From positions 1-56,810 of the IMG/VR virus record IMGVR_UViG_3300013093_000003: DNA of 56,810 bases; one strand, given 5' to 3'. The notes under the pieces are model-generated. The model saw nothing but the letters and a program-made list of their open reading frames with translations, was not told the DNA's origin and made no database searches. Position 1 is the first letter of the stretch, and every line of letters starts with the position of its first letter. The DNA is from a virus (Duplodnaviria > Caudoviricetes). A program made the position numbers and the translations under genes. This document shows, in pieces, positions 1 to 15,772 of the stretch.

Positions 1-123
1 CCGTCTCGCTTCCTCCTGCTCTTGTCAAAGGGCTCATACCCTTTGAAGGGGTTTGCTTCATCGGCGGGCAGAGCGGCGCGGGCAAAACATTTCTTGTTTG
101 CGATCTGGCAGTCAGTCTGGCCA
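1..123. repeat. Terminal direct repeat of the contig (circular assembly overlap), copy 1
   Basis: Identical to 56688-56810 and lies inside a reading frame that continues across the junction. Confidence 0.95.
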
Positions 124-1187
124 GCGGTGTTGATTTTTTCAGCAAGAAGATAAAGGAAAAGGTCGGGGTCATTATTCTGGCGGGTGAAGGCGCGGCTACG
201 CTCAAGACGCGATTGCGCGCCATTCGCATTTCAAAGGGGCTAGACGAGGCTTCGCTTCCGATTGCGTGGTTGGGTGCCGTTCCGAATTTGGCGGACGCTG
301 CCGAGGTCGCCAAGCTGATTCCGAGGCTTAAGGCGGTGGCCTCTCTCTTTCAGGAACGTTACGGCGTCCGGCTGGGCATGGTTGTTTACGACACGCTCGC
401 GGCGACGTTTTCTCTGAGCGACGAGAACGATAATTCGGAAGCGTCCAAGATCATTCGCATGATGAACCACGTCGGTGCTGCAGTCGGTTGTGTGCAGGTT
501 CCGGTGCATCACTACGGCAAGGGCGCCGAGACAGGGCTGCGGGGGGCGAGTGGGTGGCGCGCAGGCTGTGACGCCGTGTTGTCCGTTACGTGCGACCGCA
601 ATCAGGTGACGGGGGAGACATCGAACCACTATCTGTCCCTGTCGAAAAACCGCGTAGGCGAGGAAGGGCCAATCGGGCCGTTCGAGCTGCGCAAGATAAA
701 CTTGGGCACCGACGAGGACGGAGAAAGCTTCGGGTCGTGCTACGTGGTGCCCGGCGCGCTCTACGAAGACGCAAAGCCTACAGACGACAAAGATAAAGAA
801 CATGACGCTCTGGCAGCTCTGTCTACCGGCGATTGGAAGAAGGATATGCAGGCCGGGGAGCTTTGGGCAGGGCACCCGATTGCGGACGCTTTTGACATGG
901 ATTTGGCCATTTCGTCGAACGAGAAGGCGGTCAAAACGCTTATTAAAGAATGGCTCAAAACAGGCAAATTGACCGAGTATCAGAAGATGAACGAGCACCG
1001 CAAAATGCGTAAATTTGTTCGGTCAACTGTGAAAATAAACGGCGAAAACGACGAAGAAAACGACGAAAACGAGCGTGGACAAGATGTAAAAATACAACTT
1101 GTAAGAAATGACGAAAAACTCGATGATACAAGTCGTATTTTAGCAGGTGACGCAAAGGTGACGCAAGCTAAGTCATTGTTTGATTGA
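1..1187 (+). CDS. 3' part of primase-polymerase/helicase (RepA/AAA_25-type helicase domain); gene starts at 55622
   Basis: Frame from base 3 has Walker A GQSGAGKT, ILAGEG, Walker B VVYDTL, HHYGK and RGASG; in frame with the ORF from 55622. Confidence 0.9.
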   Translation, partial: VSLPPALVKGLIPFEGVCFIGGQSGAGKTFLVCDLAVSLASGVDFFSKKIKEKVGVIILAGEGAATLKTRLRAIRISKGLDEASLPIAWLGAVPNLADAAEVAKLIPRLKAVASLFQERYGVRLGMVVYDTLAATFSLSDENDNSEASKIIRMMNHVGAAVGCVQVPVHHYGKGAETGLRGASGWRAGCDAVLSVTCDRNQVTGETSNHYLSLSKNRVGEEGPIGPFELRKINLGTDEDGESFGSCYVVPGALYEDAKPTDDKDKEHDALAALSTGDWKKDMQAGELWAGHPIADAFDMDLAISSNEKAVKTLIKEWLKTGKLTEYQKMNEHRKMRKFVRSTVKINGENDEENDENERGQDVKIQLVRNDEKLDDTSRILAGDAKVTQAKSLFD

Positions 1188-1308
1188 GGTTTGCGTCACC
1201 TCGAAAAAGGTGACGCAAAGGTGACGCAGCCGGCCCATACAGTTTTGCGTCACCTTTGCGCGTCACCTTCATCCCTAGAAGGATGAAGGTGACGCAAACG
1301 GTGACGCA
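1146..1308. repeat. Cluster of GGTGACGCA repeats with a hairpin; putative replication origin
   Basis: Six forward copies (1146, 1157, 1209, 1220, 1288, 1300) and three reverse (1192, 1246, variant near 1259); 15-bp inverted repeat 1260-1274/1281-1295; AT-rich DNA follows. Confidence 0.6.
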
Positions 1309-1348
1309 GTGTGGGAAACTAGAGTGAAGAATTAAATAAAAATGCTTT

Positions 1349-1361
1349 ATACAAGTTGTAT
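1349..1361. promoter_or_regulatory. Palindromic operator-like site ATACAAGTTGTAT
   Basis: Perfect 6-1-6 palindrome; related copies at 1092, 1126, 5530, 5560, 37945, 37959, 38590. Confidence 0.55.
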
Positions 1362-1604
1362 TTAACGAGGACCTAAAAACCTGTTTGGGTAGGCCAACCC
1401 CCGAACTTTTTAATTTTTAAAAGATGGTTTGGTTTGACCCCTTGGTTCCGAAAAGTCCCCTTGGGGGAAACCAAAAGGCGAAACCGAAATAATTTTGGAA
1501 AATCGCCTTATAAGGGTTTTGAAAAGTAAAACCCACCGAGGCTTTTTCTTGGCGGGTTTTTAAAAAGGCCGATTTCAAAAAACGCATAACGGAATCGGGT
1601 GCGG

Positions 1605-1712
1605 CCGCCCAGCCCAGCGACCGCCCAGAGCCTCGGACAGCGACCGCCCAGCCCAGCGACCGCCCAGCCCAGCGACCGCCCAGCCCAGCGACCGCCCAGA
1701 GCCTCGGACAGC
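1605..1712 (+). repeat. Tandem array of 16-bp and 23-bp units sharing core CCGCCCAG
   Basis: Units CCGCCCAGCCCAGCGA and CCGCCCAGAGCCTCGGACAGCGA in the order 16-23-16-16-16-23(partial). Confidence 0.9.
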
Positions 1713-1716
1713 AGGC

Positions 1717-2265
1717 TCAGGACGTCCGATAGACCGTGCTGCGGCTCACCCCTAGCGTTGCCGCGATCTCGGTCGCGCCCAGCCCCCGCTCCCTCAACTT
1801 GGCGATAGCAGCCAGATCTGTGACAGGTGGCCGCCCTTTGCCGATATATCGGCCCGCGCGCTTTGCCGCCTCTATTCCCTCTCGTTGCCGCTCGGAACGC
1901 AGCGCTGTTTCAAATTCCGCAAAAACCCCCAGCATCGAGAGAAACGCCACACCAGCAGGCGTTGACGCGTCAATCGGCTGTTGCGTCGCTCGCAACGTGA
2001 CGCGTGATTTTTTCAGCTCATCCAGAATATTGGCCAGATCACGGATAGACCGGGCCAGTCGGTCAATGCGTGTTATCCAGAGCTCATCACCCGGCCGTAG
2101 GAATTGTAGCAGCGTGTTTAGTTCCTCGCGGCCCTGTCTCGACGTGCCGCTAATTTTTTCAGATCTGATTATCTCGCAACCGGCAGCCGTCAATTGTGCT
2201 ATTTGCTCATCCAGATTTTGCCCCGTTGACGAGACTCGCGCGTAACCGTATCTCATTTTTACCAC
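1717..2265 (-). CDS. Small serine recombinase (resolvase/invertase family) with C-terminal HTH
   Basis: YGYARVSS catalytic motif, RIDRLARS, FAEFE..LRSERQREGI, HTH IAATLGVSRSTVYR. Confidence 0.95.
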   Translation of the reverse strand: MVKMRYGYARVSSTGQNLDEQIAQLTAAGCEIIRSEKISGTSRQGREELNTLLQFLRPGDELWITRIDRLARSIRDLANILDELKKSRVTLRATQQPIDASTPAGVAFLSMLGVFAEFETALRSERQREGIEAAKRAGRYIGKGRPPVTDLAAIAKLRERGLGATEIAATLGVSRSTVYRTS

Positions 2266-2382
2266 TCCTCGTTTTTAAATTGACTTGTTGCCACCTAGCA
2301 GCCCCGCCAACGGGCAACAGCCGTCACAGGCTAGCACGTATGCAATAGGCCAAGAGCTTGCCGCCCTTGGCCTCCTAATTGA

Positions 2383-2469
2383 TTATTTTGAATCTCGTAT
2401 CGCTTGTATCGTTGCCGCCATTAACCCAATCGGGATCAGCAGCAGCGCGAGCGGCAATAGATAATCCAT
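2383..2469 (-). CDS. Small membrane peptide (28 aa)
   Basis: MDYLLPLALLLIPIGLMAATIQAIRDSK, hydrophobic, follows the upstream ORF with GAGGG RBS; not in ORF track. Confidence 0.45.
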   Translation of the reverse strand: MDYLLPLALLLIPIGLMAATIQAIRDSK

Positions 2470-2479
2470 CGCGCCGCCC

Positions 2480-2626
2480 TCACTGTTGCCTCGCCCAGAT
2501 TGCAGCATCCCGCGCGGACTCAAATGCCATAAACCCGCCATAAACTCGCACCGTCACAGCCGCCCATGGCGCAATTTTGCGCGCGCTTTTACGGCTCTTT
2601 ACAGCCTCTAAAAATAGTTGTCGCAT
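2480..2626 (-). CDS. Hypothetical early protein (48 aa)
   Basis: ATG at 2626 after G-rich RBS; MRQLFLEAVKSRK...; co-oriented with the early cluster. Confidence 0.6.
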   Translation of the reverse strand: MRQLFLEAVKSRKSARKIAPWAAVTVRVYGGFMAFESARDAAIWARQQ

Positions 2627-2943
2627 ATTAACCCCCCTGTTTTTTGCAGTAATGACTCTATCAGGCGCAGCGTTGCCACGGCATCGTCCGGCGCAGCGCA
2701 GCCCAGATGTCCGCCGTTTGCTATCAGCCGCCCCAGCCACGGCGCAGCGCGCGCCAACGCGTCCCGCATATCAGGTGCAGCCGCGATCAGGTCACAGTTG
2801 GCCTCGATCTCGGAATCAGACAGCCCAGCGCTGCAAATTTGCGCGATATGGGTGTTACGGCCCGCAAACACGGTTGCGTGTTTGCGCGTCGGCGAGATAT
2901 TGCGAGACCACGGCCCGCGCGTATGTTTTGGCGTGTTTTTCAT
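2608..2943 (-). CDS. Phage hypothetical protein of the HTPGPW...LIAAAP type
   Basis: KHTRGPW and EANCDLIAAAPDM motifs common in phage early genes; AGGAG RBS. Confidence 0.75.
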   Translation of the reverse strand: MKNTPKHTRGPWSRNISPTRKHATVFAGRNTHIAQICSAGLSDSEIEANCDLIAAAPDMRDALARAAPWLGRLIANGGHLGCAAPDDAVATLRLIESLLQKTGGLICDNYF

Positions 2944-2965
2944 TTTTTAATCTCCTGTTAATTCG

Positions 2966-3565
2966 TTATTTTGTTTCGCCGGTGAATTTTGCCCAGCTCG
3001 GCGCACGTCCGGTCTCATCCCTGTTTTGCCGCACTGGCATGACCACGCCAAACACATCAGGACTATCAAACAATACCAGCGCAGGCTTCTGCCCAGCAGG
3101 ATAGATCGCGAATCCATCGCCGCTCGTTTTGCCCAGCGTTGCCGCCGCTTTGGCCATGACTGCCAAATATTTCGACGCAAACCAGCATTTCTCAACGCTC
3201 AACTCCGAACAATCCGCAGGCACGACTCGGCGCCAGTTTGGAAACGTCCCGTCGATAGGCTCAAACATGGTATTGCCCAGCATCCAGCGGGTGCCTGCCA
3301 TTTTTTCCAGCCCAACCTCGACCTGATTTTTCAACGGTTTAAACGATTTAATAACGTCAAACGGGATAATGATAGCAGCCGCTAACATGTCCGGATTAGC
3401 AATTTCGTGGCGTGCGCCGAGCAGGATATGACCATTCGTTGCCACCATCGTTGCGTGCTCGGTCGAGATCTCGACAAATACACCGGTCAGGTAATATCGG
3501 GCTGCCTCCGTAGATACGGCCAACGATACGGCGCGCAGCATGTCACAATTCAACATAGTTTTCAT
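2966..3565 (-). CDS. Truncated DNA polymerase III beta-clamp-like protein
   Basis: AVSTEAARYYLTGVFVE, MVATNGHILL and PIDGTFPNWRRVVP match the DnaN central-domain motifs; only 199 aa. Confidence 0.75.
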   Translation of the reverse strand: MKTMLNCDMLRAVSLAVSTEAARYYLTGVFVEISTEHATMVATNGHILLGARHEIANPDMLAAAIIIPFDVIKSFKPLKNQVEVGLEKMAGTRWMLGNTMFEPIDGTFPNWRRVVPADCSELSVEKCWFASKYLAVMAKAAATLGKTSGDGFAIYPAGQKPALVLFDSPDVFGVVMPVRQNRDETGRAPSWAKFTGETK

Positions 3566-3642
3566 TTTGTTTTCTCCGGTTTAAAGCAAGCCACCTCGGC
3601 GCTTTTGATTGCGCCCCTCGTGAGAGGCGCAAGATAAAAACG

Positions 3643-4002
3643 TCAAATTGCCCAAAAAACCCTGAACCCGGCAGCGTCAACGCAATCATACCAGTGCCTG
3701 CCACCGTCAATCTCTAACGCGTCCAACAGAGCCGTTGTGTGAGGGAATAACGGAAATTTATCGTTCTCCGGTAAACCGGCACGAATTTTTTTTGCCGCAT
3801 TTGCGACCGCAGCCGTTTGCCGGTCGTAGTTGTAACCGGTCGCAGAGCCTCTAGCACCGTCAATGCCGACGATGCGGAGATACGCGTCAGCGCGATCGTT
3901 GTCCTTGATTGCCACGTCAGCGATGTGCACGCCATCGCGCACAATAACAGCAGCCGACACGTTTCGAAAAGCGGTCCTTTTTTGCGTATAAACATCAGAC
4001 AT
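3643..4002 (-). CDS. Hypothetical early protein
   Basis: ATG 4002 after GAGGG; A.GYNYDRQTAA motif. Confidence 0.65.
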   Translation of the reverse strand: MSDVYTQKRTAFRNVSAAVIVRDGVHIADVAIKDNDRADAYLRIVGIDGARGSATGYNYDRQTAAVANAAKKIRAGLPENDKFPLFPHTTALLDALEIDGGRHWYDCVDAAGFRVFWAI

Positions 4003-4012
4003 TTTGAAACCC

Positions 4013-4108
4013 TCACATAAAAAATGAAATTGCAATAACCGCACCGCAGCCACCAACAGCCGCCAGCATCACGGTAAACGCCACCACGGCGCGCAAATTA
4101 TTCAGCAT
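4013..4108 (-). CDS. Small membrane peptide (31 aa)
   Basis: MLNNLRAVVAFTVMLAAVGGCGAVIAISFFM, hydrophobic. Confidence 0.45.
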   Translation of the reverse strand: MLNNLRAVVAFTVMLAAVGGCGAVIAISFFM

Positions 4109-4400
4109 CGACGTCACCCATATAAAATTCAAAAACCAGTTCCCGGCCCTCATTAGTGTTTTCGTAAATGCTAATAGACTCCCAGCCGGACGCGTCCCGC
4201 GTATATCCAACAATCCAGCGATTTGCGGCCTGATACGAGTCAAACGACTCTAATACGGTTTCGTGGTCACCTAAAATCACGTAACGCATCGCCTCTGCGT
4301 CCGTGCCATAGTGGGCGCGCAATGCGATGCGCAGCACGTCGCAGGATTCGACAGCGGCGATGCGCAGGGTTGTTACTGTTGCGGTTCCGGTGTTAGTCAT
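4098..4400 (-). CDS. Hypothetical early protein
   Basis: ATG with GAGG RBS; first gene of the leftward operon. Confidence 0.6.
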   Translation of the reverse strand: MTNTGTATVTTLRIAAVESCDVLRIALRAHYGTDAEAMRYVILGDHETVLESFDSYQAANRWIVGYTRDASGWESISIYENTNEGRELVFEFYMGDVDAE

Positions 4401-4432
4401 TTTGTTGCCTCGTTGCGTTGTTGATGTGTTTT

Positions 4433-4476
4433 AAAATATACTGTCCCCCGGATATGTCAAACAATCTGTTTGACAT
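4433..4476. promoter_or_regulatory. Divergent promoter region with back-to-back TTGACA in a perfect inverted repeat
   Basis: ATGTCAAACA-ATC-TGTTTGACAT at 4454-4476, between divergent genes 4400(-) and 4511(+). Confidence 0.6.
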
Positions 4477-4510
4477 TTTGAGATTATTTTTGTGCGTGCT
4501 AAAAATAACC

Positions 4511-4975
4511 ATGCAAACAGCCAGACGCCGCCACATCCCGCCATTGCCGATCGAGGACGTGTTAGATCATCCCGTTGCACAGGCGCTCCCGGTTGCCGCC
4601 TACGGGATGCTTATGCGCGTTATCATGATTTATTGGCATAGCGAGTGCAGGCCGTTGCCTAAGCAGGACGTAGCGCTCGCATTGCTCGCAATGGCGCACA
4701 GGCCAACATGGGCGGCGCATAGGACTGATATAAAGGACGTTTTGTCCGATATAACGCCCAAACTTGAGCGCGCGTGGCACACCCGCACGAATCGCAAAAT
4801 CAGGCTAGCAGAGCGCGGACTAGAAGGCGCGTCGGCGCGTCGGCTGGACGCGTTGCGCAAAAAAACAGCGCCAGCCCTCACCATTGGCGAGACAATAACG
4901 ACGCCACGGGTTACGCGTGATAAAGCACCGGCGATGCCAGCAGGTGACGCTAAGGGATTTCGGGACCGAGGCTAG
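4511..4975 (+). CDS. YdaU/DUF1376-like protein
   Basis: AYGMLMRVIMIYW...PLP..D..LA resembles the DUF1376 N-terminus; ATG at 4511. Confidence 0.5.
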   Translation: MQTARRRHIPPLPIEDVLDHPVAQALPVAAYGMLMRVIMIYWHSECRPLPKQDVALALLAMAHRPTWAAHRTDIKDVLSDITPKLERAWHTRTNRKIRLAERGLEGASARRLDALRKKTAPALTIGETITTPRVTRDKAPAMPAGDAKGFRDRG

Positions 4976-5113
4976 CAACAGCCAATCAGCGGCAAAGGTT
5001 CAATATACAATCTGTCTCACGCGTTGAGGTGTTGCGCCTCACGAACAATTTAATTTTAAAAACTCTCAAACCGTGCCAGCAGGAAATGAGGCCAACCGGC
5101 ACGCCGTGACGCC

Positions 5114-5180
5114 CGCCCAGCCGCACCCGCCCAGCCGTTCCACAGTTTAACAGCGCCCAGCCGATGCCAGCGCCCAGCCG
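5114..5180 (+). repeat. Four direct copies of CGCCCAGCCG
   Basis: Copies at 5114, 5128, 5154, 5171; same core and orientation as the 1605-1712 array. Confidence 0.85.
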
Positions 5181-5529
5181 TTGCCCGGTAATGTCGCATA
5201 ACGGCCCCTGCTATTTATGCGACACATTCGGCATTAAAACACACGACAAAGACACACCGCCCGGCGTCCCACCCAGCGTATACCGTAAAGACACAGCGCC
5301 AGCGACGCGGCCCAGCCTGCTAGGGCGCCAGCGGCCCCGCCGGGGCGGATTCGGGCCGGAAAACCGCGTTTTCCAAACCGTTTTGGGCTTTCGGGATTTA
5401 TTTTAAAGTGCCCCACTGCCAAATGCCCCCAGAAAAAATGCCAAATAATATAATTTTTTCAAACACTTAACCGAAACACGTCACCACCTACTCGAACGCC
5501 GCAACAACCGCCGCATAACCGCCGCATAG

Positions 5530-5572
5530 ATACAGCCTGTATTAAGCAACGCCTTAACGATACAACTTGTAT
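5530..5572. promoter_or_regulatory. Two palindromic operator-like sites (ATACAGCCTGTAT, ATACAACTTGTAT)
   Basis: Starts 30 bp apart, upstream of the 5655 gene; same family as the 1349 site. Confidence 0.55.
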
Positions 5573-5654
5573 AAAAATTGCCGCTCAACCCGCCTGTTTC
5601 CCCTTAAATCGAACCGTGCTATGGTGCCTCCAGTCTTAACCACCGGAAACCACC

Positions 5655-8600
5655 ATGCGCTTTATCAAACCGATGATGGCCATAGCAGCGGCCTTAACGC
5701 TGTTCACCCAGCCCCTTCAGGCGCAATCCACGCGGTCGGCTCTGACGACTGTCAACAACGCCGAGTTTAAGTCGTGCGGCAACGGCTGTATTACCGGGCC
5801 GATGGTGAACAGCTTCAATGCCCAGATGCTCGCCAGCACAGGGTTTCTGGCCGATACGAACAACTGGACAGGAACCAACAACTTTCTTGGGCCAATCAGT
5901 TTCGCCACGCTTGGTCTGACAGGGGTTATTAGCTCGGCCTCTCCGACGGGGGCGCTGTCTTACGGGATACTGCCGTATAGTGACGTGAACATTTTTGCGT
6001 CGTTCAATTCGAACGTGAACAGTTATGCGCAGCAGGTCGTTTCCAACTCGAACGCTGGAACGTCGGCGTCGGCGGATTACATTGTCAGCAACAACTTGGG
6101 CACAGCGTCGTCCTATTTTGGCGACTTCGGAATAAACAGCTCCGGGTTCGTTGGTGTCGGCAGCTTGAACTTGCCGAACGCAACGTTCTTGGCCGCGACG
6201 TCTGGCGACTTGTCTTTGGGGACGACCGGTGCAAACGCGGTGCACATAGTGGCCAATGGTTCGGCCACAGATGCGATCACGGTCACGTCGGGGAACGCGG
6301 TCGCGCTTCCGCAACTGACCGGATACGTTTATGCGAACGGGTCGTCGGCTGCGACGGCATCCAGCAACATTCCAGTTGCGGCGTTAAACGGCGGTAGTGG
6401 CGCAAGTTCTACGACATTTTGGCGCGGCGACGGGACATGGGCGACGCCCGCTGGGGGTGGTGGCGGAACGCCGGGCGGCAGTTCGGGTCAGATTCAGTAT
6501 AACAACGCCGGAGCGTTCGGAGGATTTACGGCATCCGGCGATGCGACGATTGTCGCCAGCACCGGTGCGGTGACGCTCTCGACCGTCAACAGCAACGTCG
6601 GTTCGTTCGGGTCTGCAACGGCAGCGCCGACCTTCACGGTCAACGGTAAGGGTTTGTTGACGGCGGCGGGGTCGGTTACGATTGCTCCGCCGTTCTCGGC
6701 TGTGACAGGCCAAACGACTTTGGCGCAGCTTCCGTCGCTTGCCACGAATACGATTTTGGGCAACGGGACGGCTTCGACTGCAACACCGACCGCGCTTGCG
6801 ATTCCGTCGTGCTCGACAGCTTCGAGCGCTTTGACGTGGACGACCAGCACGGGCTTCGGGTGTAACTCGATTTCGGGCGGCGGTAGCGGCACGGTCAACA
6901 GCGGCACGATTGGTCAACTTGCCTACTACGCGTCTACCGGAACGGCGGTAAGCGGCGAGACAACGCTTGCGGCCTCGCAAATGCCTGCGTTGACTGGTGA
7001 TGTGACCAACACGGCTGGGTCTTTGGCGACAACGGTTGGTTCAATCGGCGGTAAAGCGGTGTCGCTGGGCGGCTCGTTTACGACGTCCGGCGCGTTCAAT
7101 ACGACTTTGACAACGACGGGCACAACGACGCTGACGCTGCCGACGTCCGGTACTGTGACGGCGCTGGGCAATACGGTTACGGGCATAGGCTCGATTGTTC
7201 TAAATTCAGGAGCAACTCTTGCGGGGCCGCTTCTGACCAACGCGTCGGCTTCAGGGTTTTTCTCTGCGCCGGGCCTCATAACAACGACCGATCTTGCTTC
7301 GCAAAACGCCAATACTATTTTAGGCAACGGAACGGCTTCGGCTGCAACACCAACCGCATTGGCGGTGCCCTCGTGCGCTGGTGCAACCAATGCTTTGATC
7401 TGGACGAGCGGAACCGGATTCGGGTGCAACACGATCACAGGCAGCGGTTCGGGAACAGTCAGCAGTGGCACAGCGGGGCAGCTTGCCTATTACGCTTCAT
7501 CGGGCACTGTTGTTAGCGGCGAAACAACGCTGGTAGCTTCGCAGATGCCGGCACTGACCGGCGACGTGACCAACACGGCTGGGTCTTTGGCAACAACGGT
7601 CGGTTCGATCGGCGGTAAAGCGGTGTCTCTGGGCGGGAACCTGACGACTTCGGGTGCGTTCAACACAACTTTGACCACAACGGGCACCACCTCGTTAACA
7701 TTGCCGACGTCCGGCACTGTGACGGCGCTGGGCAATACGGTTACGGGTTCGGGCTCGATCGTATTGGCCACGTCTCCGACTTTGACGTCGCCCACGGAAT
7801 CGGGAACGACGGTGACAGGGTCGTTTACAGCAACGGGTCTGGTGACACTGGCCGACCAAGCAACGCAAGCGGCTAACACGGTTACGGGTAACGGAACAGG
7901 GTCAACTGCGTCTCCGACTGCGCTTGCGGTTCCAAGCTGCTCGACGGGCACCAGCGCGTTGACGTGGACAAGCGGAACGGGTTTCGGGTGTAACTCTATC
8001 ACGGGCGGTTCAAGCACCGTCACGAGCGTTCGTCAGTCTGTGCAAAGCGGGCCGGGCGGCGGAACGCCAACCTTCTTACCCGCAACATCGGCGTCTTTGG
8101 CCATTACGTCGCAGAACATATCGACGGGTGCTAACTCGTTTGTCGTTTCATCTGCGGGCGGGTTTGGGTCTTCGGGTAACGTAGATAACGTAGGCGTCAG
8201 CACAGCCAACCTAACGTGGTCAAGCTTAACAGCGTCCACCACAGACTTTTTGGGCGTGACAGTATCGGGCGGCGCGCTGACGACATTAAGCACGGCGTTA
8301 GTGCCAATTTACCAATACGGCGGGACAATCTCGGTCACGTCGGGTCAATACACGTTTGATATTTCGCAAATGAAAATGTTCTTGGGCAACGGCTCAACAG
8401 CATCTGCGGTCAACGTGGTGTTCGTGGGTGAAGCTGTAACAAGCGGGTCTGCGGTTACAAGCACGGTCGCTTATCAGTATCTCGGCTATTACGACAGCGG
8501 GTATATTGCAACACTCCCCGCCGTTTCAACATCTGTAAGCAAGAACTCTAATCTAGGAATAGCCGCGCACAATATAACACTGCACGTAAAAAACATAACA

Positions 8601-8816
8601 ACAGAAGGCGGTTTTTCGGTCGGTGATGAAATTGTCCCTTTCACATATACCGCTCCATACGTGGCGCCGTTTTCTCCTGCTTCGAGCAGGAATACTAGCC
8701 AGTTTACAACAGCATCTTCAAATTCTTTTGCGGCGTTGACTAAGACAAGCGGAGCGTTTTTTGCTTTAACAGCCGCAAATTGGTCTTACCGCGTAATCGC
8801 AACAAGGGGTTGGTAA
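5655..8816 (+). CDS. Long G/S/T-rich fibre/adhesin-like protein (1053 aa) with predicted signal peptide and internal repeats
   Basis: GGSSGQIQYNNAGAFGG and LTGDVT fibre-type motifs, repeated modules, followed by a chaperone-like gene; N-terminus MRFIKPMMAIAAALTLFTQPLQA. Confidence 0.75.
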   Translation: MRFIKPMMAIAAALTLFTQPLQAQSTRSALTTVNNAEFKSCGNGCITGPMVNSFNAQMLASTGFLADTNNWTGTNNFLGPISFATLGLTGVISSASPTGALSYGILPYSDVNIFASFNSNVNSYAQQVVSNSNAGTSASADYIVSNNLGTASSYFGDFGINSSGFVGVGSLNLPNATFLAATSGDLSLGTTGANAVHIVANGSATDAITVTSGNAVALPQLTGYVYANGSSAATASSNIPVAALNGGSGASSTTFWRGDGTWATPAGGGGGTPGGSSGQIQYNNAGAFGGFTASGDATIVASTGAVTLSTVNSNVGSFGSATAAPTFTVNGKGLLTAAGSVTIAPPFSAVTGQTTLAQLPSLATNTILGNGTASTATPTALAIPSCSTASSALTWTTSTGFGCNSISGGGSGTVNSGTIGQLAYYASTGTAVSGETTLAASQMPALTGDVTNTAGSLATTVGSIGGKAVSLGGSFTTSGAFNTTLTTTGTTTLTLPTSGTVTALGNTVTGIGSIVLNSGATLAGPLLTNASASGFFSAPGLITTTDLASQNANTILGNGTASAATPTALAVPSCAGATNALIWTSGTGFGCNTITGSGSGTVSSGTAGQLAYYASSGTVVSGETTLVASQMPALTGDVTNTAGSLATTVGSIGGKAVSLGGNLTTSGAFNTTLTTTGTTSLTLPTSGTVTALGNTVTGSGSIVLATSPTLTSPTESGTTVTGSFTATGLVTLADQATQAANTVTGNGTGSTASPTALAVPSCSTGTSALTWTSGTGFGCNSITGGSSTVTSVRQSVQSGPGGGTPTFLPATSASLAITSQNISTGANSFVVSSAGGFGSSGNVDNVGVSTANLTWSSLTASTTDFLGVTVSGGALTTLSTALVPIYQYGGTISVTSGQYTFDISQMKMFLGNGSTASAVNVVFVGEAVTSGSAVTSTVAYQYLGYYDSGYIATLPAVSTSVSKNSNLGIAAHNITLHVKNITTEGGFSVGDEIVPFTYTAPYVAPFSPASSRNTSQFTTASSNSFAALTKTSGAFFALTAANWSYRVIATRGW

Positions 8817-8817
8817 C

Positions 8818-9216
8818 ATGATCTATTTTCTCAACACGCAAGACGGTTCTATCTATCAGGGTGATTGCCGAGTTGGCGACCGGCAGGCAACAGACGCCGA
8901 AGTGGCGGCGTGGCAAGCCGCGCACGCCGCACCGGTAAACTTCGTGCAGGTCAATTCAACCAGCACGCCCGCACTTAATTCGACGTATTTGTATGACACG
9001 GCGCATATTCAGGACATGATGGCGACGAGCCTTTACATTCAGGTCAACGGGAAATTCCCCGCAGGCCAAGCCGCTTTTCCTTGGTATGATTCCAACGGCG
9101 CCGTGCGGATGTTCACATCGCCTGCCCAGTTCCAGACTTTCGCAAGCGCAATGGCGGATTACGTGGCGATGTTGAATATAGGTCAGACGCCAACGGAGCC
9201 GATTACAATTTCGTAA
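8818..9216 (+). CDS. Putative fibre assembly/chaperone protein (DUF4376-like), paralog of 34599-35048
   Basis: Directly follows the fibre; shares VQVNS.STPALN, SLY.QVNGKFPA.Q..FPWYD and QFQ.FASA.ADY with the paralog. Confidence 0.7.
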   Translation: MIYFLNTQDGSIYQGDCRVGDRQATDAEVAAWQAAHAAPVNFVQVNSTSTPALNSTYLYDTAHIQDMMATSLYIQVNGKFPAGQAAFPWYDSNGAVRMFTSPAQFQTFASAMADYVAMLNIGQTPTEPITIS

Positions 9217-9225
9217 TTTACGGGC

Positions 9226-9255
9226 TTGACACCATACTATCCTATCAAGTAGGTT
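9226..9255 (+). promoter_or_regulatory. Sigma70-like promoter
   Basis: TTGACA (9226) - 18 bp - TAGGTT (9250). Confidence 0.45.
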
Positions 9256-9456
9256 GGGGCTTGTGGGGTTGAAAGCCCCGACGGATTGCCAAAGCCAAGA
9301 CCCGATTGCGTGGAGAGGCTGCGGCGTAAGGGGAAGAACAACTCGGCAGTCTGCGCAAGCAGCAACGGAGCTTCCCCTTTTTGTTTCGATGCGCGTTCCT
9401 CCCCGCGCATCGTCCTTGCGGGGTTCCGAGCTACGACGGAACCCCGCCTTTTATTT
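9256..9456 (+). ncRNA. Candidate structured RNA or leader
   Basis: Four GC-rich stems between a promoter and a terminator-like hairpin; no convincing ORF. Confidence 0.35.
9418..9456 (+). terminator. Intrinsic terminator
   Basis: GCGGGGTTCCG/CGGAACCCCGC stem followed by CTTTTATTT. Confidence 0.7.
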
Positions 9457-9468
9457 CAAGGAAATTCT

Positions 9469-9690
9469 ATGAGCAACGATGTGTTCGAAGACGCGCCCGC
9501 CAAAAGCAAGCCTGCTAAGGCGATGCCAGAGTCCAACGACCGGCTTTATGAAAAGCTGACCGAAGTGTTTGGCGCTCGCAAGGAAACTCTCCGCGCGTTG
9601 ATAGATTATCATCTGCCGGAAGCACATACGGGTATGGTCACAGAACCACAAATGCGTGCTATGTTGCTTGCGATGGTCAACGCAATCTGA
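9469..9690 (+). CDS. Hypothetical protein (73 aa)
   Basis: AAGGA RBS before ATG 9469. Confidence 0.6.
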   Translation: MSNDVFEDAPAKSKPAKAMPESNDRLYEKLTEVFGARKETLRALIDYHLPEAHTGMVTEPQMRAMLLAMVNAI

Positions 9691-9719
9691 TTTTGGCCAG
9701 TTCAACTCAGGGGAAAGCC

Positions 9720-9857
9720 ATGCTGAAGAAAACCAAATCCGAAAAAGACATGAAGAAAAACGTCGCTATGGAAGTTAAGTCCGGCAAGCCGGTTAAACAG
9801 GCCGTGGCGATTGCAAAAGATGTGCAGCGTAAAGCTAAAGCCAAGGGCTCAAAGTGA
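9720..9857 (+). CDS. Small basic phage protein (K.QAVAIA family)
   Basis: MLKKTKSEKDMKKNVAMEVKSGKPVKQAVAIAKDVQRK; motif often seen near phage packaging genes; not in ORF track. Confidence 0.7.
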   Translation: MLKKTKSEKDMKKNVAMEVKSGKPVKQAVAIAKDVQRKAKAKGSK

Positions 9858-10099
9858 ACTTCTGGCTCTCCGCCTACGCTGCTGGTGTGACGCTGGGGCT
9901 TATCGCCTCAGCCGTCATCGTGGACATGCTTCATGTAAAGTTTGACCAGAAGGCGCGATTACTTGAAACTTACCGCCGTCGTTGCGTGGACGACGCGTAT
10001 GTTAAAGGTTTCAACGAAGGCGTAAACGCGAAACGCATGGTGGACGAAGTGTTGAAATTGCAAGAAAACCGCGTCCCGCATGAAGGTTTTCTCCAGTGA
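9854..10099 (+). CDS. Hypothetical membrane-anchored protein
   Basis: GTGA overlap with the upstream gene; N-terminal hydrophobic helix. Confidence 0.6.
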   Translation: MNFWLSAYAAGVTLGLIASAVIVDMLHVKFDQKARLLETYRRRCVDDAYVKGFNEGVNAKRMVDEVLKLQENRVPHEGFLQ

Positions 10100-10111
10100 A
10101 CGGGACGCGTC

Positions 10112-10303
10112 ATGCCGAGAATTTATAAAACAAAGGGCGATGAGGCTCTGCGCGAAAAGATCACCGTCCCTGTGACGCAAGCCATGCTGTCTCGGTTGAA
10201 AGAGTTTTCAAAAGCGCTCAAAGTCTCTCCGACTTCACTTGCAAGGTTGTTTATCGAAGAAGGTATGCACCGCGCCGCGAAACCCCCTAAACCGGAAAAG
10301 TAA
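10112..10303 (+). CDS. Ribbon-helix-helix-like DNA-binding protein
   Basis: KITVPVT strand followed by two amphipathic helices. Confidence 0.55.
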   Translation: MPRIYKTKGDEALREKITVPVTQAMLSRLKEFSKALKVSPTSLARLFIEEGMHRAAKPPKPEK

Positions 10304-10304
10304 A

Positions 10305-10415
10305 ATGAAAAACTGGTATTCTGTTCGTATCGCATCGGTTGCTACTGTTCTGGCTGTTTGGTTTGTCGTGATGGTTATTTTTGCCGCCAGCATAGTGGCA
10401 GGCGCGCGCGCATGA
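10305..10415 (+). CDS. Small membrane peptide (36 aa)
   Basis: MKNWYSVRIASVATVLAVWFVVMVIFAASIVAGARA; ATGA overlap with the next gene. Confidence 0.5.
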   Translation: MKNWYSVRIASVATVLAVWFVVMVIFAASIVAGARA

Positions 10416-10675
10416 ACTTCACGATGGAAGATTTTATCATTTTCTTACCGTTGACTCTGGTCAACGGGGTTCCGCTGATGATGCGCGCCGATGACCTGTC
10501 CGGTAAGACGCTCTACGCGTGGAGCGACGATGAGTTTACAGCATGGCGGGCCGAGCGCCTTCAGGCGATGAAGGGCAAGTTTGCACCGTCCGAAGACCAG
10601 CCCGAACCGCAGTTCGAGATAAATCCTGTTGTGGAAAAGCCCGCAACGTTCCGCAGCAAAATGGGGCTTGAATAA
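10412..10675 (+). CDS. Hypothetical protein directly upstream of TerL
   Basis: ATG 10412; stop overlaps the TerL start (TAATG). Confidence 0.6.
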   Translation: MNFTMEDFIIFLPLTLVNGVPLMMRADDLSGKTLYAWSDDEFTAWRAERLQAMKGKFAPSEDQPEPQFEINPVVEKPATFRSKMGLE

Positions 10676-12561
10676 TGGCCGTGTCCTCGAACAAATGGCT
10701 GAAGCTGTTTGAAACTTTCATCGGTGACATTCGTATCAAGTCAAAAGAGTCCAACACACAGGACGAACGCGGCTCGCCGCTCATTCTTTGGGAAAGCCAA
10801 CGCCGGTTTATTCAGGAAGTCGGTTCGGGGCTCGATAACGGCATTCACTCGTTCAACTGTTTAAAGTCTCGCCAGCTCGGTGTTACCACCGTGTCTCTGG
10901 CGATTGACGTGTTCTGGTTGGCCATGCACCCGAATATCATCGGTTGTCTGGTGACGGATACGGAAAAGAACAGTCTGGCCAACCGAAGCCTGATCGAGCA
11001 CTATGTCAAATCGTTTCCTGAAAATTATTTCGGTGACGCGTTCAAGATCGTAACGTCGAACCGGAAACAGATTGTTTTCTCCAATGGCGCGCGGCTTGAT
11101 CTCTTGGTTGCGGGCACCAAGAACAAGGGCACGTCTTGGGGTGAGGGTATCGGTTACACGTTCGCACATCTGACCGAGACCGCCGCTTACGGCAGCGTGG
11201 ACGGTCTGAAGTCTTTGGAAGAAGGGTTTGCGCAGGAAAACCCCAGCCGCTTATTCATTTACGAATCCACGGCTAAGGGGTTCAACCATTGGCGCACCCG
11301 CTGGGTTGACGGGCTGAACGCCACGCTGACCCAGCGTTCGTTCTTCGTGGGCTGGTGGGCAGGCGATACCAACATTCTGCGCCGCAGCGACCCGCGATTC
11401 AGCGCTTACTCTTACCCGCCCGCACCAGATGAACGCGACCTGATTGCGACGGTTGCACGCCTCTACGGGCACAAGATCACCGCAGAGCAGCTCGCATGGA
11501 TACGCTGGAAAGGCCAGAACGCCGGAGCCGAGCAAGACTTGCTTGAGCAGAACCAGCCGTGGACGCACGACCAAGCGTTCGTTATGACGGGTTATTCGTT
11601 CTTTCAAACGCGCATGGTCACACAGGACACCAAGCGCATTCTGGAAAGCGGCATGGTCTACAAGGGCTATCGCTACGAAGTGGACGGAGATTTCTTCAAC
11701 TTCAAAATGATTGAACTTGACCCAGACCGCGACGACATTTCGCAAGTTGAATTGAAAGTCTGGGAAGAACCGGTAGAGGGCGCGCAATACGTCATCGGGT
11801 TCGACCCAGCCTACGGCAGAAACGACCATAAAGATGGCCATGCAATAATTATTTTTCGGTGCTTTGCCGACAAGCTCGTGCAAGTGGCCGAGTATGTGAC
11901 CGCAGATGTGGAAACAAAGCACGCGACTTGGGTTCTGTTTCATCTGTCAGCGGCTTATCGCAACTGCATGGTCAACGTCGAACTCGGCGGGCCGGGGCAG
12001 ATGATTATGCCTGAATTTGACCATCTGCGCCAGCTTCTTGCCGTCGAAATGAACGCCGGTAAGACAGCGGCAAAGGGGTGGGAAGACGCAGCCGGTCAGG
12101 CGCGTTGGTATCTATACCACCGCCCCGATTCGTTCGGTGCCGGATATATGGCCAACTTCGAGACGAACTGGCGCACCAAGCAAATGATTATGCACCAGTT
12201 GCGCGGCACCTACGTTAGCAACGAGCTTGAGATAAGATCGGTTGCGTTGCTGCGCGAGATGAGCATCGTTGTTGTTAATGACGGCGAAATCGGCGCACCA
12301 GAGTCACGCGACCCGAACGCCAAAGACGACCGCGTGTTTGCAATGGCGCTCGCTACTCGCGCATGGCTGGACTGGATTCGCAAAGACATGCTGGCGCAAG
12401 GCATGACTTATGAATCCGTCATGGAAAAAGAAGCCGGCAACGCAACAGAAATCAGCACCGTCGTAAACTCTATCGTGTTCAACTTTCTTCGGTCTCAGGA
12501 AGAAATGGAGCGCGACGAAGAACCGACAACTCCGCGCTGGATGTCTGACCAAGGTCTATAA
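10675..12561 (+). CDS. terL: Terminase large subunit
   Basis: LKSRQLGVTT Walker A, HLTE Walker B, ESTAKG coupling motif, YVIGFDPAYG and DDRVFA nuclease motifs. Confidence 0.93.
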   Translation: MAVSSNKWLKLFETFIGDIRIKSKESNTQDERGSPLILWESQRRFIQEVGSGLDNGIHSFNCLKSRQLGVTTVSLAIDVFWLAMHPNIIGCLVTDTEKNSLANRSLIEHYVKSFPENYFGDAFKIVTSNRKQIVFSNGARLDLLVAGTKNKGTSWGEGIGYTFAHLTETAAYGSVDGLKSLEEGFAQENPSRLFIYESTAKGFNHWRTRWVDGLNATLTQRSFFVGWWAGDTNILRRSDPRFSAYSYPPAPDERDLIATVARLYGHKITAEQLAWIRWKGQNAGAEQDLLEQNQPWTHDQAFVMTGYSFFQTRMVTQDTKRILESGMVYKGYRYEVDGDFFNFKMIELDPDRDDISQVELKVWEEPVEGAQYVIGFDPAYGRNDHKDGHAIIIFRCFADKLVQVAEYVTADVETKHATWVLFHLSAAYRNCMVNVELGGPGQMIMPEFDHLRQLLAVEMNAGKTAAKGWEDAAGQARWYLYHRPDSFGAGYMANFETNWRTKQMIMHQLRGTYVSNELEIRSVALLREMSIVVVNDGEIGAPESRDPNAKDDRVFAMALATRAWLDWIRKDMLAQGMTYESVMEKEAGNATEISTVVNSIVFNFLRSQEEMERDEEPTTPRWMSDQGL

Positions 12562-12576
12562 CTTTAGGAAAATAAC

Positions 12577-13702: not shown

Positions 13703-13703
13703 G

Positions 13704-13734: not shown

Positions 13735-13738
13735 GTTT

Positions 13739-15738: not shown

Positions 15739-15772
15739 TCTTTGCGAAAGCAAAGGTTGCCGGTTATAAATT

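What the first reader, a model, noticed from the sequence alone, without database searches (positions are those of the whole stretch)
1330..5714. A 4.3-kb early-gene island almost completely lacking GAAG/CTTC
Seen: between about 1330 and 5714 I find only two GAAG/CTTC tetramers (about 3086 and 4823, both AGAAG). A uniform expectation is about 34, and the first 1.3 kb alone has roughly 20. AAG/CTT also looks thinned. The depletion covers genes on both strands and intergenic DNA. Its edges coincide with the ATACAASTTGTAT palindromes and GCCCAG arrays. Inference: this may be the first-injected segment or a long terminal repeat, purged of a motif targeted by a host defence or a phage enzyme before protection is set up. 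The nearest known analogy is site avoidance in T5 pre-early DNA.
Basis: partly seen in the sequence, partly recalled or inferred. Interest (0 to 1): 0.85.

Follow-up and report, generated by a model that had tools for sequence, protein, structure and literature searches.

The report
Early phage operons purged of AAG/CTT
A 4-kb block of early genes in an uncultivated lake phage has been stripped, at the DNA level, of the three-letter word AAG/CTT, and so of GAAG, which looks like local escape from a host defence that reads a very short motif.

Summary
Between 1327 and 5714 there are 2 GAAG/CTTC, against about 48 expected from the rest of this 56.8-kb circular phage genome. This is the strongest local tetramer depletion in the genome.

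GAAG is not the minimal word. AAG/CTT is depleted about 5-fold in the six island genes and about 10-fold in the leftward operon. GAA/TTC is weakly depleted, only as GAAG and GAAC.

Amino-acid content, codon usage and foreign base composition do not explain it:
- Recoding the same proteins predicts 73.5 AAG/CTT with genome codon usage and 42.9 with the island's own codons. 15 are observed.
- Codon choice depends on the next codon in exactly the way that avoids AAG/CTT across codon junctions.
- None of 80 bacterial invertase homologues or 110 clamp homologues is as poor in AAG/CTT.

Classical restriction-site avoidance (GTAC, CCWGG, GGWCC) is genome-wide in this phage, whereas the AAG purge is local.

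My best explanation (confidence about 0.4) is erosion of a CRISPR PAM (AAG, type I-E-like) in the only region where targeting would work. The long-terminal-repeat reading is not supported, because contig depth is equal. First injection could not be tested. No relative shares the purge.

The parts
1330..5714 (.). GAAG/CTTC-poor zone as reported (2 sites). The AAG/CTT purge is strongest in the genes from 1717 to 4975.
1142..1309 (.). Cluster of GGTGACGCA iterons in both orientations, just left of the island and after the primase-helicase gene. Likely a replication origin or initiator-binding region (inferred). One more copy lies at 4939-4955.
   Evidence: (families D2, D3, D15; inverted pairs I4, I5, I8, I11, I16, I17)
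1346..1361 (.). Left arm of a 16-nt perfect inverted repeat containing ATACAAGTTGTAT. Similar copies at 1092, 1126, 5530, 37959 and 38590 suggest an operator-type motif.
   Evidence: I3; 8 matches with up to 2 mismatches against 0.46 expected
1601..1712 (.). Tandem GCCCAG-containing array (16-nt unit, about 5.8 copies), directly after the invertase stop codon.
   Evidence: (D1)
1717..2265 (-). Hin/Pin-type serine invertase (182 aa). It has 3 AAG/CTT and 0 GAAG/CTTC.
   Evidence: PF00239, 1.8e-38; phrog_125
2608..2943 (-). 111-aa protein of phrog_1273, function unknown. It has 0 AAG/CTT. A paralogue at 53529-54035 lies in a block that is not depleted.
2966..3565 (-). 199-aa protein with a beta-sliding-clamp central domain. 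It has 2 AAG/CTT (3.3 per kb).
3643..4056 (-). 137-aa protein of unknown function. A homologue sits beside the clamp gene in 7 of 160 related loci.
4098..4400 (-). 100-aa protein of unknown function, first gene of the leftward operon. It has 0 AAG/CTT.
4401..4510 (.). Divergent control region. It holds a sigma-70-like promoter for the leftward operon (TTGACA-16-TATTTT, 4460 to 4433), a weaker rightward one (4478-4506), and an inverted repeat (TGTCAAACA..TGTTTGACA) between them.
   Evidence: (one of only 5 sites with at least 10 of 12 matches in the genome)
4511..4975 (+). 154-aa protein with a weak, sub-threshold DUF1376 match. It has 7 AAG/CTT and 1 GAAG.
5100..5185 (.). Second group of CCCAGCC/GCCCAG repeats, on the right side of the island.
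   Evidence: sequence; 5151-5185, period 17
5560..5575 (.). Right arm of the 16-nt inverted repeat (ATACAACTTGTATAAA).

Best explanation
Shown: the two divergent operons at 1717-4975 of this circular 56.7-kb phage genome have been purged, at the DNA level, of the trinucleotide AAG/CTT. The purge holds on both strands and in all reading frames. GAAG and GAAC are also reduced, and the near-absence of GAAG/CTTC follows from this.

Inferred: the block is transcribed from host-type promoters early in infection. It is the only part of the genome where a host defence keyed to a very short motif can still stop the phage. Classical restriction sites, by contrast, are avoided over the whole genome.

The best-fitting known agent is a PAM-dependent CRISPR-Cas system. 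AAG is the PAM listed for type I-E, and GAA/TTC the one listed for type I-C. Repeated escape by PAM mutation, mostly synonymous or at codon junctions, would erode PAMs in the region where targeting works, as was shown experimentally for the pre-early DNA of T5. The remaining 52 kb would stay unselected because early products neutralise the defence or because cleavage there comes too late.
For: 1. Size and uniqueness.
- AAG/CTT at 1601-5600 is 35 against 152.8 (log10 P -29.8).
- The best local trimer signal in 51 related loci is -17.8, and that is A/T drift.
- In 100 other viral contigs (1.5 Mb), the best signal for a trimer of mixed composition is -20.9 and the median is -6.4.

2. Not protein or codon usage.
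- The six island genes have 15 AAG/CTT. Recoding the same proteins with genome codon usage gives 73.5 (z -9.2). Permuting the island's own codons gives 42.9 (z -6.9).
- AAG/CTT and GAA/TTC are the two extreme words among all 32 trimers.
- Five control gene blocks give z from -1.1 to +3.4.
- AAG and CTT are each low in all three frames of the sense strand.

3. Junction-specific codon choice.
- Gln/Glu codons end in A in 1 of 16 cases before a G-starting codon, against 26 of 51 otherwise (p 0.0012). The rest of the genome shows the opposite trend.
- The codon before TTN ends in C in 0 of 57 cases, against 229 of 826 otherwise (p 2.4e-8).

4. Evolved in this lineage.
- The invertase gene has 3 AAG/CTT and 0 GAAG. 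Its 80 bacterial homologues have 8-30 and 2-11.
- The clamp gene has 3.3 AAG/CTT per kb. Its 110 homologues have a mean of 32.4 and a minimum of 15.7.

5. Not a general foreign signature. After dropping the 15 tetramers that contain AAG or GAA, the island's tetramer distance (0.239) is at the top of the range of other windows (next 0.238 and 0.235) rather than clearly outside it.

6. Classical site avoidance is genome-wide in this phage: GTAC 5 against 95.9, CCWGG 3 against 90.9, GGWCC 6 against 61.7. The local AAG purge therefore needs a threat limited in time or place.

7. The gains are in AAA, AAC, AAT and CAA. AGG, ATG and GAG, the other type I-E-permissive PAMs in E. coli, do not gain (PAM list from Table 1 of PMC4246573, passages read).

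8. Precedents.
- In T5, only pre-early protospacers give type I-E interference; escapers carry PAM or seed mutations; 99.7% of acquired spacers have an AAG PAM (PMC5389539, section 15 read).
- A type I RM motif matters only in the first-injected region of Murciavirus phages (PMC12455610, abstract).

9. One of the 5 best sigma-70-like sites of the genome sits correctly in front of the leftward operon.
Against: - No CRISPR spacer was found. With window 1-20000 against 401 sampled genomes of one class plus 5 handles, only 28-108 nt matches at 64-97% identity appeared, and 0 of 12 loci inspected have CRISPR-like repeats. This test has low power because the host is unknown.
- The T5 positive control is weak. 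Its pre-early genes have AAG/CTT at only z -2.5 and -1.8, 231 against 258.5 and 246.1.
- The type I-C part fits poorly. GAAA (21 against 29.7) and GAAT (15 against 16.8) are not depleted; only GAAC (7 against 22.7) and GAAG are. A TTC PAM should not depend on the preceding base.
- Intergenic DNA of the island keeps AAG/CTT at 22 per kb (38 in 1719 nt), far more than the genes at 5.6 per kb.
- The closest relative found (L047, TerL 61% identical) shows no depletion in the homologous module, and none of 129 related loci does.
- Published PAM depletions are genome-wide and small (PMC4246573, abstract and passages).
- Early timing and order of DNA entry are not shown. The count of promoter-like sites in 1000-6000 is no higher than in shuffles, 4 against 3.6.
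Confidence: 0.4

Rival explanations
1. Imported module. The purge, whatever its agent, happened genome-wide in another phage lineage. The early module then moved into this genome by recombination at conserved boundary sequences (the ATACAASTTGTAT motif and the GCCCAG arrays). The local pattern would then be history, not local selection.
For: - The edges are sharp and coincide with repeated motifs.
- Island proteins are far more diverged from the closest relative L047 (clamp 34%, DUF1376-like 31%) than TerL (61%) or the 1053-aa protein (59% over a short partial match).
- An invertase typical of Alphaproteobacteria sits in the island.
- The relative's homologous module is not depleted.
Against: - No donor-like lineage was seen. 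In 129 related loci the observed/expected ratio for AAG is 1.12 +/- 0.11, with a minimum of 0.82, against 0.43 in the island.
- Apart from AAG/GAA words, the island's tetramer signature is no clear outlier: 0.239, against 0.238 and 0.235 for the next windows.
- Fast divergence of early genes is usual (established knowledge).
Confidence: 0.2
2. Avoidance of sites for an enzyme of DNA metabolism rather than a defence. Candidates are initiation trinucleotides of the adjacent Prim-Pol-type primase-helicase, or a nicking or topoisomerase site, kept out of the block next to the iteron origin.
For: - Primases are known to start at trinucleotides (established knowledge, recalled).
- The island lies directly beside the iteron cluster and the Prim-Pol/PriCT_2/AAA_25 gene.
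- It encodes replication-type proteins: a clamp-like protein and a weak DUF1376 match.
- AAG is over-represented in the rest of the genome (z +7.2).
Against: - I know of no precedent for a primer-site desert.
- A replication effect should be strand-specific, but sense AAG (12 against 58 expected) and sense CTT (3 against 45) are both low.
- AAG over-representation is common to relatives (mean observed/expected ratio 1.12), so it says nothing about this primase.
Confidence: 0.12
3. Restriction-type avoidance of a GAAG-containing site (Type IIS such as GAAGA, Type III, or a Type I half-site) in the first-entering DNA. The AAG and GAA thinning would be a by-product.
For: - GAAG is the most depleted class: 2 against 23.6 (genome codon usage) and 9.2 (own codons permuted).
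- There are 0 GAAG in 1719 nt of intergenic DNA that still holds 38 AAG/CTT.
- AAGA is 0 against 20.8.
- A type I RM motif acts only in the leading region of Murciavirus phages (PMC12455610, abstract).
Against: - AAG not preceded by G is itself 4-fold depleted: 13 against 50.2, and z -5.1 even against the island's own codon usage.
- Given the island's trimers, GAAG is not further depleted, 2 against 6.1.
- A bipartite Type I site would not require removing every half-site.
- The phage handles real restriction sites by genome-wide avoidance.
Confidence: 0.1
4. No selection on DNA words. The pattern comes from amino-acid composition, codon usage adapted to host tRNAs, strand bias, or a generally foreign base signature.
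For: - Synonymous usage does differ: GAA 0.33 against 0.68, AAG 0.19 against 0.48, TTC 0.27 against 0.53, CTT 0.05 against 0.24.
- T5 pre-early genes also differ from later genes in several trimers.
Against: - Amino-acid frequencies are alike.
- The depletion persists with the island's own codons permuted (z -6.9), in all frames and both orientations, and at codon junctions.
- Another minus-strand block (50-55 kb) is normal.
- The phage has no tRNA genes.
Confidence: 0.03

Closest known systems
T5 first-step-transfer (pre-early) DNA
   Same: A block of small early genes is the only part of the genome vulnerable to a host DNA-targeting defence. In T5, only pre-early protospacers give type I-E interference, and escapers carry PAM or seed mutations (PMC5389539, section 15 read). 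That T5 pre-early DNA lacks EcoRI sites is recalled, not checked here.
   Different: - The T5 region is a 10.2-kb terminal repeat with an injection stop signal (record AY543070). Here there is no doubled depth, and the physical ends are unknown.
- T5 pre-early genes show only a slight AAG/CTT deficit, z -2.5 and -1.8, against a 5-fold deficit here.
Genome-wide PAM depletion in phages (types I-C, I-E, I-F, II-A)
   Same: Short strand-symmetric motifs equal to PAMs (GAA for I-C, AAG for I-E) are under-represented after controlling for codon bias. This is attributed to selection by CRISPR (PMC4246573, abstract and passages; PMC12174588, abstract).
   Different: The published effects are small shifts over whole genomes, compared across host groups. 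Here the effect is 5- to 10-fold, confined to about 3.3 kb of a 56.7-kb genome, and the host and its CRISPR type are unknown.
Type I RM motif avoidance in the first-injected region of Murciavirus (Autographiviridae)
   Same: Only motifs in the leading region matter. Phages that lack the motif there infect despite carrying copies elsewhere (PMC12455610, abstract).
   Different: That case concerns one bipartite motif with a few copies. Here every copy of a trinucleotide is selected against.
Classical restriction-site (palindrome) avoidance
   Same: Selection on DNA words independent of coding. It is present in this same genome for GTAC, CCWGG, GGWCC, GGATC and CCGCGG.
   Different: That avoidance is genome-wide and concerns 4-6-bp words, most of them palindromes. 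The AAG/CTT purge is local, asymmetric and only 3 bp long.
Invertible segments with Gin/Hin/Cin invertases (Mu G, P1 C)
   Same: A Hin/Pin-type invertase gene and a perfect 16-nt inverted repeat 4198 nt apart bracket the block.
   Different: - The content is early and replication-type genes, not tail-fibre alternatives.
- The invertase lies inside the segment.
- The repeat motif also occurs elsewhere in the genome.
- No inverted form was seen in contigs of 4 runs.
- Inversion would not explain a trinucleotide purge.

Membership tests
PAM depletion under CRISPR-Cas pressure | The depleted word equals a known PAM | tested here: met
   AAG/CTT and GAA/TTC are the two most depleted of 32 trimers. 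Table 1 of PMC4246573 lists AAG for type I-E and GAA for type I-C. The GAA part holds only for GAAG and GAAC.
PAM depletion under CRISPR-Cas pressure | Depletion is independent of strand, reading frame and codon usage | tested here: met
PAM depletion under CRISPR-Cas pressure | The host carries a CRISPR-Cas type using that PAM, and spacers match the phage | tested here: inconclusive
   The host is unknown; the nearest invertase relatives are Alphaproteobacteria. No spacer-like match lies in an array in 401 + 5 genomes searched with window 1-20000. 36.8 kb of the phage was not searched.
First-step-transfer / leading (first-injected) region | Lies at the physical genome end that enters first | not testable with these tools
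   The assembly is circular with a 123-bp overlap. All 24 runs are kept as contigs, so there are no read starts. TerL has only 4 distant relatives in the phage collection.
First-step-transfer / leading (first-injected) region | Long terminal repeat (doubled coverage) | tested here: not met
   In run X1, the contig over 1683-7181 has depth 15.5 and the 50.6-kb contig has 15.3.
First-step-transfer / leading (first-injected) region | Host-type early promoters and small genes of unknown function | tested here: inconclusive
   A divergent pair of sigma-70-like sites lies at 4433-4506. One is among the 5 best of the genome, but the count in the region is no higher than in shuffles. No RNA run is listed.
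Classical restriction-site avoidance | A 4-8-bp recognition site avoided over the whole genome | tested here: not met
   The minimal word is 3 bp and asymmetric, and the depletion is local. True genome-wide avoidance exists for other words.
Invertible DNA segment (Hin/Gin/Cin type) | Serine invertase plus flanking inverted repeats | tested here: met
   PF00239 at 1.8e-38 and phrog_125. 16-nt perfect inverted repeat.
Invertible DNA segment (Hin/Gin/Cin type) | Both orientations present in the population | tested here: inconclusive
   No strand-changing joint at 1350 or 5560 in contigs of 4 runs. Contigs drop rare variants.
Horizontally acquired island with foreign composition | The overall oligonucleotide signature differs from the host genome | tested here: not met
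   Without AAG/GAA words the L1 distance is 0.239, at the top of the range of other windows (next 0.238 and 0.235) and not clearly outside it. GC is 0.52-0.55, as in the rest of the genome.

The most novel reading that the evidence does not exclude
This is a natural 'PAM desert'. A lytic lake phage has removed nearly every AAG/CTT from its immediate-early operons because these 3 kb are the only DNA on which the host's PAM-dependent CRISPR-Cas (type I-E-like) can still win. That would imply a T5-like window of vulnerability, through staged entry or early anti-CRISPR or takeover proteins encoded by the unknown island genes. Local word deserts could then be used to read, from sequence alone, both the PAM of an unknown host and the vulnerable region of an uncultivated phage.
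Probability: 0.3. Interest if true: 0.85.

Novelty: new variant of a known kind. Interest (0 to 1): 0.74.

Why it matters
Motif avoidance in phages is usually described genome-wide and for restriction sites. PAM depletion has been reported only as a small genome-wide shift. This is a 5- to 10-fold, sharply bounded purge of a trinucleotide. It is demonstrably at the DNA level, and it sits in a genome that handles classical restriction sites in a different, genome-wide way.

If the cause is a defence, the pattern marks which part of a phage genome is exposed before counter-defence sets in, and which motif the defence reads. Both would be readable from sequence alone in an uncultivated virus.

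If the cause is something else, such as a primase or nickase, then a 3-bp-specific process acting on one block would be new in itself.

Scanning phage genomes for local word deserts with codon-aware nulls is a cheap and general test. A first look found a smaller AGA/TCT desert in an unrelated phage family.

Tried and rejected
Rejected explanations
- Codon and amino-acid explanations were rejected by the two recoding nulls and the junction tests.
- Strand bias was rejected because the other minus-strand block (50-55 kb) is normal.
- A generally foreign signature was not supported.
- The long-terminal-repeat reading was not supported.
- The absence of sense GAAG in the 1053-aa gene (5655-8429) is explained by composition.

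Search for relatives
- There was no DNA match in the phage collection in near or distant mode.
- The primase gave no relative in IMG/VR.
- A clamp alignment gave 160 loci, and none has an AAG purge.
- The closest, L047, is syntenic but not depleted.
- Viral invertase relatives reach at most 62% identity.
The 80 listed loci were checked; 4 had only distant hits (22.8-50% identity) to TerL, the methylase or the helicase, and none matched an island protein.

Reads and runs
- No RNA holder is listed.
- All runs are contigs, so ends, nicks and read starts could not be examined.
- The other lake runs hold the same sequence with almost no differences, so a polymorphism test was impossible.

Other negative or uninformative results
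- Spacer hunt: nothing usable.
- T5 as a positive control for PAM erosion: only a weak deficit.
- Function of the small island proteins: nothing from Pfam, PHROGs, NCBIfam, PDB sequence search or the ESM Atlas beyond what is listed under parts.
- The phage methylase is a beta-class enzyme with weak similarity to CcrM. Its likeness to M.MboIIA is limited to the shared catalytic region and says nothing about GAAG. GANTC is not depleted in the island.
- There are no tRNA genes and no Rfam families.

Literature
- Searches for a localised PAM-free early region found none: with terms on PAM depletion, early genes, first injected and pre-early T5.
- This is a search of open-access full text only, and supplements were not seen.
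The contigs of the nearest protein relatives (P0002, P0014) therefore could not be read.

Full report
WHAT THE WINDOW IS

The window is the whole record: one contig of 56,810 bases, flagged as a virus record. A 123-bp overlap between its ends shows a circular assembly.

It is a tailed-phage genome. It encodes a large terminase, a major head protein, a virion transglycosylase, a tail fibre, a family-A DNA polymerase, a helicase, an exonuclease, a DNA methylase and a dNMP kinase. A Prim-Pol/PriCT_2/AAA_25 primase-helicase runs across the junction, from 55610 to 1187.

There are no close relatives in the phage collection. The sequence is held by lake-water metagenome runs.

THE OBSERVATION

Between 1327 and 5714 the only GAAG/CTTC are at 3086 and 4823, both within AGAAG. 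The rest of the genome predicts 47.7.

The three longest GAAG/CTTC-free gaps of the genome lie side by side here. Among all 136 strand-merged tetramers and all 2-4 kb windows, this is the strongest local depletion (log10 P -15.8). Most of the next hits are AAG- or GAA-containing tetramers in the same place.

There is a 16-nt perfect inverted repeat around ATACAASTTGTAT at 1346-1361 and 5560-5575, and GCCCAG arrays lie inside both edges.

THE REAL UNIT OF DEPLETION

The real unit of depletion is shorter than GAAG.
- Against the rest of the genome, AAG/CTT is 53 against 167 and GAA/TTC is 76 against 180.
- Judged from the island's own dinucleotides, AAG (53 against 124) and GAA (76 against 138) are the depleted words.
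- Given those trimer counts, GAAG (2 against 6.1) is not further depleted.
- In the rest of the genome, AAG and GAA are over-represented and GAAG is as expected, 571 against 569.
- In a trimer scan, AAG/CTT at 1601-5600 is 35 against 152.8 (log10 P -29.8).

In the genes, the classes rank as follows (the two expectations are genome codon usage, then the island's own codons permuted):
- GAAG: 2 against 23.6 and 9.2.
- AAG not preceded by G: 13 against 50.2 and 33.2.
- GAA not followed by G: 43 against 68.8 and 55.6.

GAAA and GAAT are normal, GAAC is low (7 against 22.7), and AAGA is 0 against 20.8. AAG/CTT is therefore the core, and a weaker GAAS component rides on it.

The five genes of the leftward operon hold 8 AAG/CTT in 2202 nt, against a genome average of 36 per kb.

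NOT CODING BIAS

Amino-acid frequencies in island genes match the rest of the genome. The synonymous shifts hit exactly GAA, AAG, TTC and CTT, which are two reverse-complement pairs.

I used two recoding nulls on the six island genes:
- Keeping the proteins and drawing codons from genome usage gives 24.5 +/- 4.0 GAAG/CTTC (minimum 10 in 2000 draws) and 73.5 AAG/CTT.
- Permuting the island's own codons gives 9.2 +/- 2.5 GAAG/CTTC, with 1 of 2000 draws at or below the observed 2, and 42.9 AAG/CTT.
- The observed AAG/CTT count is 15.

AAG and CTT are each low in all three frames. Of all 32 trimers, AAG/CTT (z -9.2 and -6.9) and GAA/TTC (z -7.4 and -4.2) stand apart. Five control blocks, including another minus-strand block of small genes and the neighbouring 1053-aa gene, show nothing.

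Codon choice also depends on the neighbouring codon in the way that avoids the word:
- Gln/Glu codons end in A in 1 of 16 cases before a G-starting codon, against 26 of 51 otherwise.
- The codon before TTN ends in C in 0 of 57 cases, against 229 of 826 otherwise.
- NCT codons precede a T-starting codon in 1 of 47 cases.
- Lys precedes a G-starting codon in 6 of 37 cases, against 246 of 734 in the rest of the genome.

NOT AN INHERITED OR FOREIGN SIGNATURE

- The invertase gene has 3 AAG/CTT and 0 GAAG over 525 aligned bases. All 80 bacterial homologues (56-65% identical, mostly Alphaproteobacteria) have 8-30 and 2-11.
- The clamp-like gene has 3.3 AAG/CTT per kb. Its 110 distinct homologues have a mean of 32.4 and a minimum of 15.7. 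Its GAA/TTC count is not unusual.
- After removing the 15 tetramers that contain AAG or GAA, the island's signature distance is at the top of the range of other windows rather than clearly outside it.
- None of 129 related loci has a low AAG observed/expected ratio: the minimum is 0.82, against 0.43 in the island.
- The syntenic module of the closest relative found, L047, is not depleted.

ASSEMBLY

Misassembly is unlikely. In the probable source run, 1683-7181 is one contig, so the right-hand change of composition lies inside a contig. Its depth equals that of the 50.6-kb contig. The breaks fall in tandem repeats, and other lake samples hold the same sequence. Gene order matches L047.

ANATOMY OF THE ISLAND

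A divergent control region at 4401-4510 carries one of the five best sigma-70-like sites of the genome.
- Leftward it drives five genes: two unknowns, a protein with a beta-clamp central domain, a phrog_1273 protein and a Hin/Pin-type invertase.
- Rightward it drives a gene with a weak DUF1376 match.

Left of the island lie GGTGACGCA iterons and the primase-helicase gene, so this is an early, replication-proximal module. That reading is inferred.

MECHANISM

The same genome avoids GTAC (5 against 95.9), CCWGG (3 against 90.9), GGWCC (6 against 61.7), GGATC and CCGCGG everywhere. Threats that act on any site at any time are thus met genome-wide. A purge confined to one early block calls for a threat limited to that block.

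A strand-symmetric, frame-independent three-letter word fits a CRISPR PAM best. AAG is the PAM listed for type I-E and GAA for type I-C (PMC4246573, Table 1 and passages).

In T5, only pre-early protospacers give type I-E interference. Escapers carry PAM or seed mutations, and acquired spacers have AAG PAMs (PMC5389539, section 15). A type I RM motif likewise counts only in the leading region of Murciavirus phages (PMC12455610, abstract).

The words that gained (AAA, AAC, AAT, CAA) are consistent with PAM loss. The other permissive type I-E PAMs (AGG, ATG, GAG) did not gain.

RESULTS AGAINST THIS READING

- No spacer was found, though this was a low-power test that covered 20 of 56.7 kb against 406 genomes.
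- T5 itself shows only a weak AAG deficit in its pre-early genes.
- The GAA component depends on the next base, which a TTC PAM should not.
- Intergenic DNA of the island is much less purged than the genes, although it holds no GAAG.
- Relatives lack the pattern.
- Early timing and order of entry are not shown.

I therefore put the PAM reading at about 0.4. The rivals are import of an already purged module (0.2), avoidance of sites for a DNA-metabolism enzyme such as the neighbouring primase (0.12), a GAAG-type restriction site (0.1), and non-selective causes (0.03).

The long-terminal-repeat reading is not supported, because depth is equal. The inverted repeats together with the invertase meet the formal outline of an invertible segment. 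However, no inverted form was seen, the motif recurs elsewhere, and inversion would not explain the purge.

HOW UNUSUAL IT IS

- In 51 related loci, the strongest local trimer signals are A/T-only words, best -17.8.
- In 100 other viral contigs (1.5 Mb), the strongest signal for a trimer of mixed composition is -20.9 and the median is -6.4.
- One unrelated family (L310 and kin) has a 1-2 kb block of small genes next to an invertase gene in which AGA/TCT is 10 against 58.2 and 35.8, and ACT/AGT is also low. Local word deserts may therefore be more general.

I found no paper describing a localised PAM-free early region (searches; open-access full text only, supplements not seen).

VERDICT

This is a real, statistically extreme and mechanistically informative feature. 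It is a new variant of motif avoidance: local, trinucleotide-level, and distinct from the genome-wide restriction-site avoidance in the same phage. The cause is not yet proven.

Noticed in passing
whole window: Genome-wide avoidance of GTAC (5 sites against 95.9 expected; at 7150, 33443, 34197, 45323 and 50961), CCWGG (3 against 90.9), GGWCC (6 against 61.7), GGATC/GATCC (6 against 39.3) and CCGCGG (4 against 28.4). This is the classical footprint of restriction-site avoidance.
   Followed up: partly
window 1-123 and 56688-56810: A 123-bp identical overlap of the contig ends, so the assembly is circular and the true length is 56,687 bases. The primase-helicase ORF (Prim-Pol, PriCT_2, AAA_25) runs across the junction, 55610 to 1187. 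The minus-strand ORFs at 55603-56639 are probably spurious.
   Followed up: yes
window 1142-1309 and 4939-4955: About ten GGTGACGCA iterons in both orientations directly after the primase-helicase gene, plus one more copy inside the 3' end of the DUF1376-like gene. Probably an origin with an outlying site.
   Followed up: no
window 5655-8816: A 1053-aa protein with a signal-peptide-like start and internal repeats; contigs break or join at about 6560-7570. No family match. There is no sense GAAG until 8430, but CTTC is normal, which is explained by amino-acid composition.
   Followed up: partly
window 37943-37971 and 38590-38602: Further copies of the ATACAACTTGT motif (a tandem pair, and a copy with two mismatches) at a small minus-strand gene cluster between plus-strand blocks. 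The motif looks like an operator or promoter element at strand switches.
   Followed up: no
window 1380-1590: An A/T-rich stretch without ORFs, holding several hairpins and terminator-like sites between the left inverted repeat and the GCCCAG array. No Rfam match.
   Followed up: no
window 32600-36600: The only other strong local tetramer depletion in the genome: AAAA/TTTT, 10 against 53.2.
   Followed up: no
L085-L088, L093, L108-L110, L130, L132, L141, L146, L147, L153 (near the clamp-like gene): In many distant relatives CAG/CTG (CAGC, CTGC) is 1.7- to 3-fold lower around the clamp-like gene than in the rest of the locus. I did not test this against codon-aware nulls.
   Followed up: no
L310 about 7650-9600 (also L303, L313-L315); L295 4186-8163; L289 6918-9321: Unrelated viral contigs with an invertase homologue have an adjacent block of small genes that is low in AGA/TCT (L310: 10 against 58.2 by genome codon usage, 35.8 by own codons), ACT/AGT and CTC/GAG. 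These are possible further local word deserts.
   Followed up: partly
L321 (phage T5, AY543070) 1-9750: Against the next 40 kb, T5 first-step-transfer DNA is low in AGA/TCT (205 against 405), ACT/AGT and CTC/GAG, and very rich in CGC/GCG (355 against 104). GAAG/CTTC is 4.5 against 10.2 per kb. Part of this survives permutation of synonymous codons (AGA z -4.0, CTC z -4.0).
   Followed up: partly
window 2608-2943 and 53529-54035: Two phrog_1273 paralogues in one genome. One lies inside the purged island (0 AAG/CTT) and the other in a block that is not depleted.
   Followed up: no
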